Source: Trypanosoma brucei (Eukaryota). Taken from it: DNA of 64,000 nucleotides. Below are positions 39,701 through 54,700 of this stretch, piece by piece. The position numbers were made by a program. Position 1 is the first letter of the stretch, and every line of letters begins with the position of its first letter. The stretch lies in NCBI GenBank assembly GCA_000002445.1, contig CP000066.1:1-64000 (forward strand), in the 5' to 3' direction.

Positions 39701-42700
39701 AGAAAGCCACGATTCATAGACCTTATATAAGCTTGTTCTTTAGTGATAGAACCGACGGAGATTTTGATTGAGAGAGGAGAAATGGCTGAGAATTTACAAA
39801 AAAGAGAATAATAAAATATCTCAACAATTTGCTCGGTGCACACACATCTAGTTTTACACAACAGAAAGACAAGATGGGGTGTAGTCCTCTACGATCATTT
39901 TGGAAGACTAAATCTCCGAAACGGCTAACCAGCAAGCGTAACAAGCACCCCGGCTCCATGCTAGACCAGCGCCTTTCAAACAAAGTAACTTCTGGGTCTC
40001 AGCATCTTTCAGAAACAGCAGAAATGCATGGCCACAAACTAAGGTTTAAACAAATCCCCGGTTAAAGCACCTGCATCACCTCCATAAGCGCCTCTGTACT
40101 TCGGCTAAAAGGTTTCAATAACAGCAGTGGCACAACACGAGCAGACCCGTTCAACTCCACCTGACGGTTCAAACAACCGGTGGCCGGTTTGCAGCAAGCA
40201 ACACTCGCTTTTTGCCGAACCAAATTAACTCTTCAAGGCTAAACCAGCACTACGAAACAAGGAAATAAATTTTAGCTGTAAGCTCAAAAAATGGCCCTGA
40301 GCATGTGGCTAAATCACTGCGCGCTAATAGTCGCAGCGTTACTACCACTGGCGGAAACTGCAGCGAATGACAACGCGGCGGCACACCGAGTGTACTGTGG
40401 CCTACTAACCGCAGCGAAAACACCTTATACCACCAGCGACCTTACTGACGACCCAAGCACCGCATTCAACACAATTCTGGCAATGAATTTTTCAACCAGT
40501 AGCAATGACTGGACAACTATGTTCGATACGTCAAAAGACGAAGTCAGCCCAAAGAACCCACCCGACGGCACAGCACCACCCAATGACAAAGAAGCGTGGC
40601 AAAAAATGTGGCCAGAATGGTGGGCAGCCGGCAGGCGATGTGTAACCGAGAAGATAGGCCAAGGGGACAAGCCAGCTTACCCACCAATCAGGCAGCCGGA
40701 ACAAAAAAGACAAGCACACCGGGAGCTGCAAAAGTTAATTGACGGCACAAAACACTTAGTCGACGAATACGAAACCGTAAAAAACGACATAAAAACGAAA
40801 AAAGCACAATTAGACTCCTATCTGAGCGAAGCTCTCCTCGGGGAACAAAACGCCAACGGCCTACCAACACCCACGAAAGGGATAGCGGCGATCACTAGCT
40901 GGAGCGCCGCCTGCGGAGCCAATTTACCTGGCAAGTCAATAGCAGGGGACTTCCTCTGCGCATGCAACAACAACGCGGACACGGACAAACAGTGCAGCCC
41001 AAATTATGACCCACAGCAGTGGAACAGCAACATAGACTTGAACACAAAATGGCCCTTGTTAAAGAGCAGCTGCAAGGAACCTTTTCCAGCAGCACTAACC
41101 GCTGCAGCAATACACCAGGCGCTCGCAACTTTCGACGCACAACTACAGCACAAAAACAACGCAGGGACCAAGCACACAATCCTGGGACTCAGCGGTGATC
41201 ACCAATGCACTGGGGCCGCAGACAAACTTTGCGTAGACTACACGGCCTACTTCAACAAAACAACAGGACATACCGCCACAAAAATCCCCTGGAAAGAGAA
41301 GCTCGAGAAAGCGGCGGCAACAATAACAGAACTAGAAGCAAAAGCACTAGAAGGAAGAAACCTAGCAAGATAGATTCAGGCAAACTTTCATATCTGCCAA
41401 GGCATATACACGGCAGCAGCAGAAGGCACCTTAGTCGACGACGTAATTACCGCGATTTCGACACTGAAACCAAGCACTACAGATATTTCAGAAGCCACTT
41501 GCAATAACCTAACGACAAACACAACTTGCACTCCCCCTTGCACATGGCATGACAAGGAAAGTGATCCAAACAAAAAATGCTCACTAGACCCAGTAAAAGC
41601 AGCAGAAAGACAAGCAACCCAAACACCAGAAGGAACAGGAGAGAAAACAGAAACAGAGAAATGCAAAGGGAAATTGGAACAAGAATGCACCAAGGTTCCT
41701 GAATGAAAATGGGAAAATAATGCTTGCAAGGATTTCAGTTTTCTTTCAAATAAAATTTTACTTTGATGGCTGCTGCTTTTGTCTGTTTAGTAGAGTTTTA
41801 ATAATTCTTTCTTAAATTTATGAAATCAATGAAATTTACCATTGGAAGAATTTTTGGGGGTCTTTTTCAATAAATTTGATATATTTTAACACTTTTTGTC
41901 AAATCTTTGCAAATTTCTAAGACTTTGAAAATCTAAAATTTTTATGAAAGTGTACTTTTGGTGCAATATGGCAGGATAATAGTGTATGAAAAGTGAGTAC
42001 TGTTACGTACATTTTCTAATTTTTTTGTCACTTAGATGTATATTTGTTAGGGAAATGGTAATATAGTAATGATAACGATGTGGGAGTGTTGTGAGTGTGT
42101 ATATTCTAATATTATAATGATAGTGAAGAAACTGAGTGAGATACAGATTCTAGTGTAAAGACCAAATGGATTAGCTACGCTATCAGTAGTGATAGAAGCA
42201 GTATACGGGAAAGAAGGGAAATTGCCGGAAACCACAAAATCCGCGATAACGCATCTTAAAATAGAAGGAAATAATACAGAAGGAGATTGTGCTCCAGATG
42301 TTTCACAAAAATTGATATGTATAAAAGTGGAAATGACTGCAACAACAACAGCAATAAAAGTAGTTAATTAATACCGATTAATAGGGCCTCATGACTATAA
42401 CGAATGGCTAGAATAGTTATCACAAAAATATAATAAAATACTCACAATATCTGAACCCTGTAGTGCAACTAGTTATTGCAGTTCACATAAAAATATATGA
42501 ATGGTAGATATTTATGAAAGATAAGGTTAAATTCACGTGGTATATTGCACTATGTGCTCCTGAAGCTTACTTCTAAAAACAAAAATCTTACATGAGTACC
42601 GAAGTATAAGATGCAGACACTAATCATACACCCTCAACAGCTATAACATAAAAATATTAAGACAATAATTATATATATGTAAACACAGTTTCAATAAGTA

Positions 42701-51700: not shown

Positions 51701-54700
51701 GGCAATAAATGTTTATGTTTTAGATATATATGCATATCGGTATGCGTTAAAATTGAAATCCAAAACTTTTTGAAAATCGAAATATATTTTGGGATGGAAT
51801 ATTCCATTTTCTTAAAATTTGCAAGTTTTTCTTATAACCTTCTCAAAATTATAGAACAAATTAGGACATGAAGTTTTGCATATTGAAAACTTTACAGCTC
51901 CTCTAACATTTAGTGTGTTCAGGCTCAGTATCACTTCAAGAAGACACAAAAACAAATATAACAGAAAATGTGCACAAGAAACCTAGCGTATTTGTCGTTG
52001 TAGTTCAAACTCATACAACTCAAGGATAGTGCCAGCTAATATTAAGTGCAAAACTGAGCCATGTTGAAATTATTCCAATTTCTATTTGAGGTTTGTTTAG
52101 TAATGTTAAAAGGCCTATATGGGTTATGAAATTTTTAGAAAGACGGAATGCATGTAATAAGGATATTGTTACTCATTTGAAGAGATCTTATATTATTGTT
52201 ATTGATGGTAAGAAGCATGAAAATGCTGTGGAATATTTTATGCAGAATACTGCAGAAAATGAAGAGAAGTTTAGTGAAGAGCATGTGAAGAGATTCTATT
52301 GTTTTTAAATGTTAAATATAGAAAATAAAAGAATAAGAAGTAAAGACATCTATTAAAATCACCTCCTGGTGGAAACCCCTATCTTAGTGGTGGTGGCTTG
52401 ATAGCTAGGGTTTGGGCATTTGGGAAATTTGAATATGCTTTTGGAGAGTTACTAAAGGGAAGTGAGGAATGGTGGTCAAAGCAGAGTATTTACAAACCGT
52501 CGTTAATATGAAGTGCAATTCAGGAAGAAGCTGTTCGGCAGAGATTTGTTTTGAGGAGAGGAATGATTGGACTAGATTATGAGGAGAGATTTTTCACTAT
52601 TCCAAATAGTAGTGAAATTGGAAAAGACTCCATTTATTCATTTTACAGGACAAACAAATGACTGGAAAGAAAAAAGAAAGACTGATTTTGAAAATTTTTA
52701 CTTGGTATAGAGAGTTCGAACGAAGTAAATTTAACACAAGAGATTTGTTGAAACTTCAAAATTATGCGATGGGCGGAGGAAAATGGGATTTTCAATATCA
52801 GGAAATTTGTGGTGTGTCGTTTAAAGAGGTTTAATTGTTTAGAGCAAAGAAGTTGTGAAAGTTGTCAAGAAGAGCCTACCGACGCCAACAAACTAACAGC
52901 TGCCAAATATCACTAACCGAATAGCTGAAACTTTGGCAATGCAAAGCGGCAGCAGACAACCGCGGCAGAGACATAATTTTTTTGATTCACTCCCAAAATA
53001 TCCATCATCGCAAGAAATATTAGTTCCACTATGGCGATGAAAAGCCTAATAAATCTAACACTGGTACTAGTAATACTAAAATCACAAGTTCCAGGGGCAC
53101 TGGCAGCGGCGGGGGATAACGAGCAGCTTTTCCTGGATCTCTGTCATGTGCTAGCGCTAGCAAAACGGCCGATACCAGAGATTTCAGGCATCTCAGATGC
53201 GACAAGTTTCTACAAACAAATTCAGAAATTAAACTCGTCATTGAGCAGCCTTGAATGGAGAAAGCAGTTTTCTCAAACAGGCGAAAACAAGAAAAGGCCA
53301 GCCTACAAACCCGAAAATGGAAAAGAAGACGAAGTCAGAAAACAACGCTGGCAGCACTGGACAGGAGCCGAAGAGGAGCTCGAGGAGGAGCAGCCAAAAG
53401 GAAAAACACTGAAGGAAGCCGGTGCGGACGTACCAGACACGCGAACAAGGCTGTTGTGGTTAGCCCAACTACAACCCATAGCAGAAAGGGCAGACGCGGT
53501 CATGCAAACAATAGAGCACAAGTACCAGGGAGCCTCTGAGTTTTCAAAAGATAAAATAAGAAAACTGATGACAGACGCAGCTTACGGCCCTTCCGCAGCA
53601 ACACTAACGGAGATTCAACAAGCAAATATCGGAGCAGACAACGGCGGCGCGACGACCCGCAGCGCATTGTGCGGCGCCGATGCGGCCGGCGCCAAGGCGG
53701 CAACGGTTGCAGCCTACTTGTTCTGCCTTTGCGCTAGCCACGCCGACGACAGCAACGGTGACGATGACGTATGTGTGAACGGCCAAGGGCAACACAACCA
53801 GGGAAACTCAGCAGACCTAAACAGAGCGGAGACAGCAATCAAAGATCTGGCGGGCAAGTGCTACACAGATGCAGCCACAGCCCCGCTAACAGCAGAAGAA
53901 ATCAGACTAGCGGTCGCAACATTCGCCAGCAAGCTCCAGCCAAAACAAGGAAAAGCATACTACGGCAAATACACCGCAACAGGCTGCAGCGGCTCAGGCG
54001 CACAAGGGATCTGTGTAATGTACAAGACGGACACCGCAGGTAATGCGGCGGCAGCCAAAAACATACCCTGGGTTCAGAACTTACTTAGTGCGGCCGACAA
54101 GCTAGAGAAGCAACAAGCCGCAAGCCAGACCCTAGAGGCGCTGACAGCAGAACTCAAGGCACTAAAAAGTGAGGTATACAACATAGGACAGCAGGTGAAA
54201 CTTAGCCAGGAGATCCATAAACTAACAGCACCAACTGAAGATGAGAAACTAAAAGGCCAAAAGAAGCAGGAACAGCAAGCAAAACTGCAGTGCGAAACAA
54301 TAAATAAAGCAACTGAATGCAGACAAAAACAACCTACCTGCGAGTGGAAAGGCAAAAATGACGATGATGGTGAACACTGCAAAGTGAATAAAACACACGA
54401 AGCGCAACAACAAACAGCTAAAACAGGAAAAGAAGAGACAACAACAGACAAGTGTAGTCAAGCAAAAACCCCTGAGAAATGTGCTGCAGTTAAACGTGAT
54501 ATTCCAAAAGATAAAAAAGCTGCTTGGATGGATTGAAGATAAATGGAAAGATTCCAGTTTTCTAGTAAATAGGAATTGGCTATAATTTCTAATACTTTTG
54601 TGATTTTGGTAGCATTTAAAGGATTTTTACTCAAATCTATAAACACATGAAATTTAATATTTAAAAAGAGTTTTTTTATTTGCTAAAATTTGATACATAA

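What the first reader, a model, noticed from the sequence alone, without database searches (positions are those of the whole stretch)
42000..54600. Duplicated module (70-bp repeat, then glycosyltransferase pseudogene, then VSG), with a copy at 42050-44585 that has lost the VSG N-domain
The unit at 51330-54600 is 70-bp repeat, then GT pseudogene (51960-52810), then VSG (53031-54536). The unit at 42050-44585 is 70-bp repeat, then GT pseudogene (42900-43790), then only about 490 bp of VSG C-terminal domain (44097-44585). That C-terminal piece reads QCREKQPTC.WKGKNDDDGEHCK and is clearly paralogous to 54280-54400. About 1.2 kb of N-domain is absent from the first copy. This looks like a segmental duplication followed by an internal deletion or a gene-conversion boundary. 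The same GT-then-VSG order recurs at 1419-4288 and 12950-15890.
Basis: seen in the sequence. Interest (0 to 1): 0.55.

Follow-up and report, generated by a model that had tools for sequence, protein, structure and literature searches.

The report
Dead ESAG3 genes in trypanosome VSG cassettes
This is an ordinary stretch of a Trypanosoma brucei silent surface-antigen (VSG) array: two of at least four old cassettes that carry a dead copy of the ESAG3 glucosyltransferase gene between the 70-bp repeat and the VSG, and in one of them only the tail end of the VSG is present.

Summary
Both units have a single 70-bp repeat, then a decayed glycosyltransferase gene, then VSG sequence. The unit at 42 kb keeps only the last ~500 bp of a VSG: hinge, C-terminal domain, GPI-signal remnant and 3'UTR 16-mer.

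The "GT pseudogene" is an ESAG3 pseudogene, 55-67% identical in protein to expression-site ESAG3. A 2026 preprint reports ESAG3 as a GT-A O-glucosyltransferase. My own model matches the human LH3/PLOD3 GT domain.

The two units are homologous but are not a sister pair. The 42k ESAG3 copy is closer to the 12.8k copy (75.9%) than to the 51.8k copy (72.8%). Copies in T. equiperdum and T. b. gambiense are about equally distant. The shared VSG stretch (135 bp, 78.5%) is typical of unrelated VSG C-terminal domains in this window. The VSGs downstream of the ESAG3 pseudogenes are only 21-27% identical to each other.

Three window copies share a TGA at ESAG3 codon 79, so that sub-lineage spread as an already dead gene.

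A related T. equiperdum cassette has 1,023 bp more between the ESAG3 pseudogene and the C-terminal block. This fits loss of the N-domain but does not prove it.

ESAG3 pseudogenes in VSG arrays and expression sites, and VSG fragments, are already described. Interest is low.

The parts
42045..42138 (+). Single 70-bp repeat unit (core at 42084-42104) that opens the 42k cassette
   Evidence: Exact match to the core; 11 sites in the window against 0 expected. TAA/TGA-rich run upstream. Matches the 70-bp unit at 12093-12190 at 77%. TRF reports no tandem array here.
42612..42785 (+). Conserved 5' flank of the ESAG3 pseudogene
   Evidence: 42612-43176 is collinear with 12690-13245 at 75.2%.
42786..43889 (+). 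ESAG3 pseudogene, full length (368 codon equivalents). It has 9 internal stops, including the shared TGA at codon 79 (43019-43021), and compensating 1-bp indels. The DxxD motif is kept; G216C, W242L and H54Y are changed.
   Evidence: 66% aa identity to ESAG3, E 3e-120. Lesion table. ATG-equivalent at 42786.
43890..44093 (+). Spacer of unknown origin between the ESAG3 pseudogene and the VSG fragment. Its length is like the normal spacer from the ESAG3 pseudogene to the VSG ATG (172-405 bp).
   Evidence: No match elsewhere in the window, in the other modules or in L002. No VSG homology in any frame.
44094..44590 (+). VSG 3' fragment: end of the N-domain/hinge, C-terminal domain and GPI-signal remnant. 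In-frame TGA at 44340-44342 and TAG at 44532-44534. About 10 codons are deleted in the second C-terminal subdomain.
   Evidence: Pfam Trypan_glycop_C, E 3e-9. Every VSG relative aligns from 44094-44100 onward and never upstream; the best is P0066 aa 353-527 of 531, 46%, E 2e-45.
44694..44709 (+). VSG 3'UTR 16-mer (TGGTATATTTTAACAT, 2 mismatches), followed by a degenerate 70-bp unit at ~44868-44935 that opens the next cassette
   Evidence: 13 sites against 1.3 expected; sequence read.
51340..51420 (+). Single 70-bp repeat unit (core at 51381-51401) that opens the 51k cassette
51868..52858 (+). ESAG3 pseudogene with 6 internal stops, including TGA at codon 79 (52087-52089). It has a 102-bp deletion (aa 146-179) and frameshifts, and the catalytic DxxD motif is lost (D110K, D113Y).
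   Evidence: tblastn E 4e-102 in three frames.
53031..54536 (+). Class B VSG ORF (501 aa). Its GPI-anchor signal is frameshifted, so it is probably not expressible as it stands.
   Evidence: VSG_B E 2e-67 plus Trypan_glycop_C. ...WKDSSFLVNRNWL* lies in another frame. 93% identical to VSG 1125.4182, which ends at the same residue. No 16-mer within 3 mismatches downstream.
12861..13881 (+). ESAG3 pseudogene of the 12k cassette, the closest relative of the 42k copy. It has a 77-bp deletion and lacks the codon-79 stop.
1428..2404 (+). ESAG3 pseudogene of the 1k cassette. It is 5'-truncated at aa 43, is the most divergent copy, and carries the codon-79 TGA.

Best explanation
The window is a silent subtelomeric VSG array of a Trypanosoma brucei-group parasite. 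The two units are members of an old family of VSG cassettes, with at least four in this window and others in T. equiperdum and T. b. gambiense. In these cassettes the 5' flank holds one 70-bp repeat followed by a decayed copy of ESAG3, the expression-site O-glucosyltransferase.

The ESAG3 pseudogene is a passenger. It lies inside the segment bounded by the 70-bp repeat (upstream recombination site) and the VSG 3' end (downstream site). It is therefore copied whenever the cassette is duplicated within arrays or converted into an expression site. At least one sub-lineage (1k, 42k, 51k) spread after the gene was already dead. Each copy then decayed on its own.

The VSG behind the pseudogene has a different, much deeper history. 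It was either exchanged by recombination or diverged far faster.

In the 42k cassette the VSG is reduced to its last ~500 bp. The most likely cause is loss of ~1.0-1.1 kb, running from about the start codon to codon ~353, by deletion or by a recombination junction in 43890-44100. The remnant is one of the VSG fragments long known in the archive. It cannot encode a coat protein and carries two stop codons. At most it could donate short 3' patches in segmental gene conversion.

Shown: the identities, extents, lesions and similarity levels. Inferred: the order of events, the passenger role and the loss of the N-domain.
For: - Identity of the parts.
- A family rather than a pair: four + strand copies, 63-76% identical pairwise, with 42k closest to 12k.
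- Copies in T. equiperdum (L002) and T. b. gambiense (L004) are 72-80% identical and lie in the same position, upstream of a VSG. In L004 the copy is also preceded by a 70-bp repeat.
- Spread as a dead gene: an identical TGA at ESAG3 codon 79 in 1k, 42k and 51k. The consensus of the four copies is an almost intact ESAG3 ORF, so most lesions are private.
- Different history of the VSG part: 21-27% aa identity among the VSGs behind the ESAG3 pseudogenes.
- The C-terminal similarity is within the normal range.
- Loss of the N-domain: a sharp homology boundary at 44094-44100 with all relatives. The spacer is of normal length. L002 has 1,364 bp between the ESAG3 pseudogene block and the C-terminal block, against 341 bp here.
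- Passenger in conversion: Lister 427 BES7 and BES15 carry an ESAG3 pseudogene 3' of the 70-bp repeats (PMC2567434).
- ESAG3 is stated to be 'also in VSG arrays' (PMC3607257). VSG fragments are a recognised archive class (PMC1868767).
Against: - No orthologous locus from another strain could be fetched, so deletion versus an ancestrally truncated insertion is not resolved.
- The spacer 43890-44093 has no recognisable homology to the VSG 5' flanks of the other cassettes. A simple internal deletion within a cassette is therefore not demonstrated.
- The codon-79 TGA is absent from the 12k copy, which is otherwise the closest to 42k, and from L002 and L004. The copies may be mosaics made by gene conversion, which blurs any simple tree.
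- The T. equiperdum cassette is a paralogue (~73-78% DNA identity), not an ancestor.
Confidence: 0.85

Rival explanations
1. The 42.0-44.6k unit is a direct segmental duplicate of the 51.3-54.6k unit (or the reverse), and it later lost the N-domain by an internal deletion.
For: Collinear blocks in the same order. Within the window the 44k fragment's best VSG match is VSG 53031. Both ESAG3 copies share the codon-79 TGA and the derived 'ISI*' residues.
Against: - The 42k ESAG3 pseudogene is closer to the 12k copy (75.9% against 72.8%).
- ~27% divergence is not a recent duplication.
- DNA homology in the VSG part is confined to ~44263-44430 and is typical for unrelated C-terminal domains.
- A VSG in T. 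equiperdum matches the fragment over a longer stretch. EATRO1125 VSGs P0066-P0068 match it better than VSG 53031 does: 45-46% over 153-175 aa against 42% over 103 aa.
- The two copies have different private deletions.
Confidence: 0.08
2. The VSG piece was never full length at this site. A 70-bp-repeat-plus-ESAG3-pseudogene segment was joined by recombination or gene conversion directly to a pre-existing VSG 3' fragment, or the conversion tract ended at the VSG hinge.
For: - The homology boundary is sharp at 44094-44100.
- The spacer is unrelated to the other cassettes' spacers.
- The VSG parts behind the ESAG3 pseudogenes have unrelated histories. This shows that the junction between pseudogene and VSG is recombinationally active.
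- Recombination boundaries inside the region encoding the C-terminal domain are common in T. brucei (3' donation; PMC3708902).
Against: The spacer length (205 bp) equals the usual distance from the ESAG3 pseudogene to the VSG start (172-405 bp). That fits removal of the coding N-domain just as well. No donor or junction microhomology could be identified.
Confidence: 0.3
3. The ESAG3 copies are not passengers. They are retained because they give extended upstream homology for recombination with ESAG3 loci in expression sites, or because of a link with class B VSGs, the substrates of ESAG3.
For: - All three full-length VSGs behind ESAG3 pseudogenes in the window are B type, as is the one in L002.
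- 0 of 9 other VSG units in the window have an ESAG3 pseudogene (Fisher p = 0.044).
- BES7 (VSG 427-3) and BES15 (VSG 427-11) carry an ESAG3 pseudogene next to the VSG. VSG3 and VSG11 are O-glycosylated, and VSG3 is the preprint's named example of class B.
- Hertz-Fowler et al. proposed that ESAG3 loci mark recombination breakpoints in expression sites.
Against: - The sample is tiny and the test is post hoc.
- The T. b. gambiense cassette (L004) has a VSG that Pfam does not class as B.
- The copies decay freely, with private stops and 77- and 102-bp deletions, as expected without constraint.
- B-type VSGs without an ESAG3 pseudogene are common.
Confidence: 0.15

Closest known systems
ESAG3 pseudogenes between the 70-bp repeats and the VSG in Lister 427 bloodstream expression sites BES7 and BES15 (Hertz-Fowler et al. 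2008, PMC2567434), and ESAG3 copies in VSG arrays (Tiengwe et al. 2012, PMC3607257)
   Same: The same order: 70-bp repeat, ESAG3 pseudogene, VSG. The same gene family, 55-67% aa identity to expression-site ESAG3.
   Different: These copies lie in a silent array and have a single 70-bp unit instead of a long repeat array. They are much more decayed. One is followed by only a VSG 3' fragment.
ESAG3, a retaining GT-A O-glucosyltransferase of class B VSGs (Zhong et al., bioRxiv 10.64898/2026.01.27.701950)
   Same: Homologous over the full length. The consensus of the four copies restores an almost intact ESAG3 ORF. The DxxD motif is still readable in three copies.
   Different: All four copies are disabled by stops, frameshifts and deletions. 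The 51k copy has lost both metal-binding aspartates.
VSG gene fragments of the silent archive (VSGdb, Marcello et al. 2007, PMC1868767). From my own knowledge, not checked here: Berriman et al. 2005 reported that most fragments encode C-terminal domains.
   Same: A stand-alone piece encoding a C-terminal domain, with a 3'UTR 16-mer and the cassette's 3' boundary.
   Different: Nothing essential. The particular feature is that it sits directly behind an ESAG3 pseudogene with a spacer of normal length.
Human LH3/PLOD3 glucosyltransferase domain (PDB 6WFV, 6FXR)
   Same: Best structural match of the ESAG3 model (Foldseek E 7e-9, probability 1.00). It is also the only PDB sequence hit (E 0.029).
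   Different: 14-16% sequence identity. This is a fold-level relation only and concerns the intact parent gene, not the pseudogenes.

Membership tests
ESAG3 / ESAG3-related gene family | Sequence homology to ESAG3 over most of its 368 residues | tested here: met
   The only hit of the conceptual translation among 5.8 billion proteins is the ESAG3 cluster (66% identity, E 3e-117). tblastn finds four copies.
ESAG3 / ESAG3-related gene family | GT-A glycosyltransferase fold of the parent protein | tested here: met
   The AlphaFold model of ESAG3 (pLDDT 87.1) best matches the LH3/PLOD3 GT domain (E 7e-9). phmmer against PDB finds LH3 (E 0.029). Distant homologues hit PF25342 GT_PLOD. The preprint reports a cryo-EM structure.
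ESAG3 / ESAG3-related gene family | Intact ORF and catalytic residues (D110, D113, G215-G216, W242, E244/Q245, H297) | tested here: not met
   42k copy: 9 internal stops, G216C, W242L. 51k copy: 6 stops, a 102-bp deletion, D110K, D113Y, E244K. They are pseudogenes, not functional members.
Variant surface glycoprotein gene | N-terminal domain (Pfam VSG_B or Trypan_glycop) | tested here: not met
   For the 44k piece there is no N-domain hit and no homology upstream of 44094. For 53031-54536 this is met (VSG_B, E 2e-67).
Variant surface glycoprotein gene | C-terminal domain (PF10659) | tested here: met
   44k fragment E 3e-9; VSG 53031 E 5e-7.
Variant surface glycoprotein gene | In-frame GPI-anchor signal and 3'UTR 16-mer | tested here: not met
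   44k: the signal remnant lies behind a TAG, but the 16-mer is present with 2 mismatches. VSG 53031: the signal is frameshifted and no 16-mer is found within 3 mismatches.
70-bp repeat (VSG cassette 5' boundary) | Conserved GT-rich core preceded by a TRR/TAA run, upstream of a VSG | tested here: met
   11 sites against 0 expected, all on the + strand and all between VSG units.
   72.8% identity. The 12k copy is closer to 42k. Homology is absent in the spacers and in most of the VSG part.

The most novel reading that the evidence does not exclude
Cassettes that carry a dead ESAG3 gene may be preferentially coupled to class B VSGs, the class that ESAG3 O-glucosylates. Such a coupling could be a relic of an ancestral enzyme-plus-substrate unit copied back from an expression site into the arrays. 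It could also be a second upstream homology tract that steers these cassettes to ESAG3 positions in expression sites. In this window 3 of 3 full-length VSGs behind ESAG3 pseudogenes are class B, against 3 of 12 other units. A T. equiperdum cassette agrees. The expression sites of VSG3 and VSG11 carry the same arrangement.
Probability: 0.15. Interest if true: 0.4.

Novelty: already known. Interest (0 to 1): 0.12.

Why it matters
It matters little beyond annotation. The analysis gives the "glycosyltransferase pseudogene" its accepted name, ESAG3. It shows that the two units belong to an old dispersed cassette family rather than a recent duplication. It places the truncated VSG among the known archive fragments.

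It has some small use for people who study how VSG arrays evolve. The shared codon-79 stop shows that at least one cassette sub-lineage multiplied with an already dead ESAG3 gene. The unrelated VSGs behind similar ESAG3 pseudogenes show that the junction between the 5' flank and the VSG is a site of exchange.

The possible link with class B VSGs is the only thread worth a genome-wide count, now that ESAG3 is reported to glucosylate that class.

Tried and rejected
- Pfam on the conceptual ESAG3 pseudogene translation gave no family. Identification needed the protein search.
- A protein search with the 145-aa VSG fragment found nothing. The word index is too coarse for a diverged pseudogene.
- Exact-protein look-ups of window ORFs (53031, 40291, 46185, 17916) and of P0069 found no contig. 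Neither the source genome nor an orthologous locus could be fetched. The public DNA collections offered hold no trypanosome genomes.
- I looked for an N-domain remnant in 43890-44093. tblastn with 15 window VSG ORFs and 11 database VSGs gave nothing significant. A 'NGACFYV' motif in another frame resembles the CVxY end of B-type N-domains. No alignment supports it, so I rejected it.
- I asked whether the ESAG3-pseudogene unit had been inserted into the VSG at 40291, which would split it. Rejected: that VSG has its own C-terminal domain and 16-mer at 41.4-41.9k.
- I looked for spacer homology among the four cassettes and L002. There was none.
- ORFs at 74-1150, upstream of the 1k copy, looked to me like a DxD glycosyltransferase (DDDIF motif). 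Pfam gave no support.
- The cysteine-flanked Ser/Thr loop (the ESAG3 target motif in VSG3) is present in VSG 53031. It is also present in four of the other five B-type VSGs, so it is not specific to these cassettes.
- Pfam classing of the VSG pseudogene behind the T. b. gambiense ESAG3 pseudogene failed.

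
Full report
**What the window is.** Nearly all long ORFs on the + strand are variant surface glycoprotein (VSG) genes or pieces of them: Pfam VSG_B, Trypan_glycop (A type) and Trypan_glycop_C. The units are separated by single copies of the 70-bp repeat. Its core GAGTGTTGTGAGTGTGT occurs 11 times against 0 expected, always on the + strand and always behind a TAA/TGA-rich run. Most units end with the VSG 3'UTR 16-mer, found 13 times against 1.3 expected. 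The best protein matches are T. brucei VSGs and ESAG3. This is a silent subtelomeric VSG array of a T. brucei-group trypanosome. The exact strain could not be found.

| 42k unit | 51k unit | Identity |
|---|---|---|
| 41874-42115 | 51170-51414 | 71.8% |
| 42780-43207 | 51862-52275 | 76.6% |
| 43313-43846 | 52279-52814 | 70.0% |
| 44279-44413 | 54281-54414 | 78.5% |

E-values run from 1e-24 to 3e-87. The first block is generic VSG 3' flank plus the 70-bp repeat. It also matches 54544-54961, and 44681-44922 matches 51160-51395.

The ORF 53031-54536 is a class B VSG with a C-terminal domain. It aligns to residues 358-460 of VSG 53031 (41.7%, E 9e-22). Roughly 357 codons, about 1.07 kb, are absent. 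Only 205 bp separate it from the upstream gene. The two further cases at ~1.4-4.3k and ~12.9-15.9k are real. The coordinates of the upstream gene are slightly too narrow.

**What the "glycosyltransferase pseudogene" is.** Its conceptual translation has one hit in the protein database: the cluster of expression-site-associated gene 3 (ESAG3) proteins (66% identity, E 3e-117). Pfam has no model for it.

A 2026 preprint reports that ESAG3 is a Mn2+-dependent retaining GT-A O-glucosyltransferase that modifies class B VSGs, with LH3/PLOD3 as its closest structure. I checked this independently:
- phmmer of ESAG3 against PDB sequences finds only LH3 (E 0.029).
- Distant homologues hit PF25342 GT_PLOD.
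- A model built on 20 homologues (pLDDT 87.1) best matches the human LH3 GT domain (Foldseek E 7e-9, probability 1.00).

The accepted name is ESAG3 pseudogene.

**Anatomy of the four copies.** tblastn and a four-way alignment give these extents and lesions, in ESAG3 codon numbering:

| Copy | Extent | Main lesions |
|---|---|---|
| 1k | 1428-~2404 | 5'-truncated at aa 43 |
| 12k | 12861-13881 | 77-bp deletion |
| 42k | 42786-43889 | 9 internal stops; G216C, W242L, H54Y; DxxD motif kept |
| 51k | 51868-52858 | 6 stops; 102-bp deletion (aa 146-179); D110K, D113Y |

All four are on the + strand and lie upstream of VSG sequence; the 12k, 42k and 51k copies also follow a 70-bp repeat.

The majority consensus of the four is an almost intact ESAG3 ORF with two stops. 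Most lesions are therefore private and arose after the copies separated. One lesion is shared in identical form: TGA at codon 79 in the 1k, 42k and 51k copies. The 12k copy has GGA there. So do the copies I fetched from T. equiperdum and T. b. gambiense. At least this sub-lineage multiplied as an already dead gene.

**Are the two units a duplicated pair?** No.
- Over the ESAG3 body, identity is 75.9% for 42k-12k, 72.8% for 42k-51k and 70.7% for 12k-51k. The 1k copy is ~63% identical to each of the others.
- Quartet-informative sites favour (12k,42k) by 30 against 19 and 16.
- The 42k and 12k units also share ~175 bp of 5' flank.
- Copies from other subspecies are no more distant: 72-80%.

The VSG-coding similarity between the two units is confined to about 44263-44430 at DNA level. 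Its strength (135 bp, 78.5%, 110 bits) is ordinary. Unrelated VSG C-terminal regions in the window match at 74% over 326 bp (198 bits), 75% over 193 bp (127 bits) and 73% over 186 bp (100 bits). Hall et al. also note the general similarity of VSG C-terminal domains (PMC3708902).

Better relatives of the fragment exist outside the window. EATRO1125 VSGs P0066-P0068 match at 45-46% over 153-175 residues. A T. equiperdum VSG matches at 255 bp, 77.6% and 198 bits.

The three full-length VSGs behind ESAG3 pseudogenes are only 21-27% identical to each other. That is no closer than to other B-type VSGs. The upstream flank and the VSG therefore have different histories.

**The truncated VSG.** Every VSG relative aligns from 44094-44100 onward and none aligns upstream. 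The fragment runs to the GPI-signal remnant at ~44590. It carries in-frame TGA (44340-44342) and TAG (44532-44534) and lacks about ten codons in the second C-terminal subdomain. It is followed by a 16-mer (44694-44709) and the next cassette's degenerate 70-bp unit.

The 205-bp spacer (43890-44093) matches nothing. Its length is that of the normal gap between an ESAG3 pseudogene and the VSG start: 173 bp at 51k, ~327 bp at 1k, ~405 bp at 12k and ~172 bp in L002.

In the T. equiperdum locus L002, an ESAG3 pseudogene (5989-6787) is followed by a full-length B-type VSG whose 3' part is homologous to the fragment. The distance between the last ESAG3 block and the C-terminal block is 1,364 bp there and 341 bp here, a difference of 1,023 bp. 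This fits loss of the N-domain coding region. L002 is a paralogue, however, so it is not proof. A recombination junction at the hinge is equally compatible with the sharp boundary.

The idea that the ESAG3-pseudogene unit split the upstream VSG (40291) is rejected. That gene has its own C-terminal domain and 16-mer.

**How it works.** These are silent archive elements. A cassette is copied between its 70-bp repeat and the VSG 3' end. This statement rests on established knowledge of VSG switching and on PMC2486309 and PMC3708902. Anything in between travels along. Lister 427 expression sites BES7 and BES15 do carry an ESAG3 pseudogene between the 70-bp repeats and the VSG (PMC2567434). ESAG3 is stated to occur in VSG arrays (PMC3607257; PMC4766357). 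The ESAG3 pseudogene is thus best seen as a passenger.

The 42k cassette cannot supply a coat protein. Its fragment could at most donate short 3' patches. VSG 53031 itself lacks an in-frame GPI signal, so it would need 3' donation to be expressed. These functional statements are inferences.

**Comparison with what is known, and verdict.** All components and their arrangement are described: ESAG3 pseudogenes in arrays and behind 70-bp repeats, VSG fragments as an archive class (PMC1868767), and similarity among C-terminal domains. The finding is real but ordinary.

The only thread with some novelty is that all ESAG3-linked full-length VSGs seen here (three in the window, one in T. equiperdum) are class B, the class ESAG3 modifies. 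Within the window this gives p = 0.044. The test is post hoc and the sample is tiny. A T. b. gambiense cassette could not be classed.

Noticed in passing
window 24344-29108, minus strand: A non-LTR retrotransposon of ingi type interrupts the VSG array on the opposite strand. Separate ORFs carry an endonuclease/exonuclease/phosphatase domain, a reverse transcriptase, and RNase H plus a C2H2 zinc finger, so it is frameshifted. It shows up as the only stretch with reversed AT skew and ~52% G+C. A 70-bp repeat core follows at 29521.
   Followed up: partly
window 53031-54640: The 501-aa class B VSG ORF ends ...KDKKAAWMD*. The usual ...WKDSSFLVN... GPI-signal region lies in another frame, and no 3'UTR 16-mer is found within 3 mismatches. 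The EATRO1125 VSG 1125.4182 (93% identical) ends at the same residue, so this C-terminal defect is shared between strains.
   Followed up: partly
window 43019-43021, 52087-52089, 1536-1538: An identical TGA at ESAG3 codon 79 occurs in three of the four ESAG3 pseudogenes. It is absent from the 12k copy, which is otherwise closest to the 42k copy, and from the T. equiperdum and T. b. gambiense copies. This suggests gene-conversion mosaicism among the pseudogenes.
   Followed up: partly
window 2731-4221, 14286-15632, 53031-54536; L002 6959-8460: Every full-length VSG that follows an ESAG3 pseudogene is class B, the class that ESAG3 O-glucosylates. None of the 9 A-type or unclassified units in the window has an ESAG3 pseudogene (Fisher p = 0.044, post hoc). 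VSG 53031 carries a CSGSGAQGIC loop like the glucosylated CTGSASEGLC loop of VSG3, but four of the other five B-type VSGs here also have such a loop.
   Followed up: partly
window 36584-36820: A nearly pure (ATA)79 microsatellite (97% matches) sits directly before a 70-bp repeat core at 36824, with another core at 35988. It is an unusually long TAA-type run of a 70-bp repeat for an array position.
   Followed up: no
window 34635-35585: Another truncated VSG. An ORF matches only positions 4-98 of the A-type N-domain model, and ~170 bp later comes an ORF with the end of an N-domain and a cysteine-rich C-terminal region. The whole unit is ~1 kb, so its middle seems to be missing. Truncated VSGs are therefore not rare in this window.
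   Followed up: no
window 74-1400: The 1k ESAG3 pseudogene is 5'-truncated at aa 43 and abuts unrelated sequence with ORFs of 130-131 aa. One has a DDDIF motif that reminded me of DxD glycosyltransferases. Pfam gave no significant hit, and no 70-bp repeat lies upstream within the window.
   Followed up: partly
window 21584-23056: An intact 490-aa ORF has a signal peptide, a cysteine-rich C-terminal region and a GPI-type hydrophobic tail, followed by a 16-mer. It has no hit to either Pfam VSG N-domain model. It may be a divergent N-domain type.
   Followed up: no
L002 5568-5989 (T. equiperdum CM010678.1): In this related locus the ESAG3 pseudogene is 5'-truncated at aa 74 and directly follows the C-terminal domain of the preceding VSG, with no 70-bp repeat between them. 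ESAG3-pseudogene cassettes are therefore truncated at different points in different genomes.
   Followed up: no
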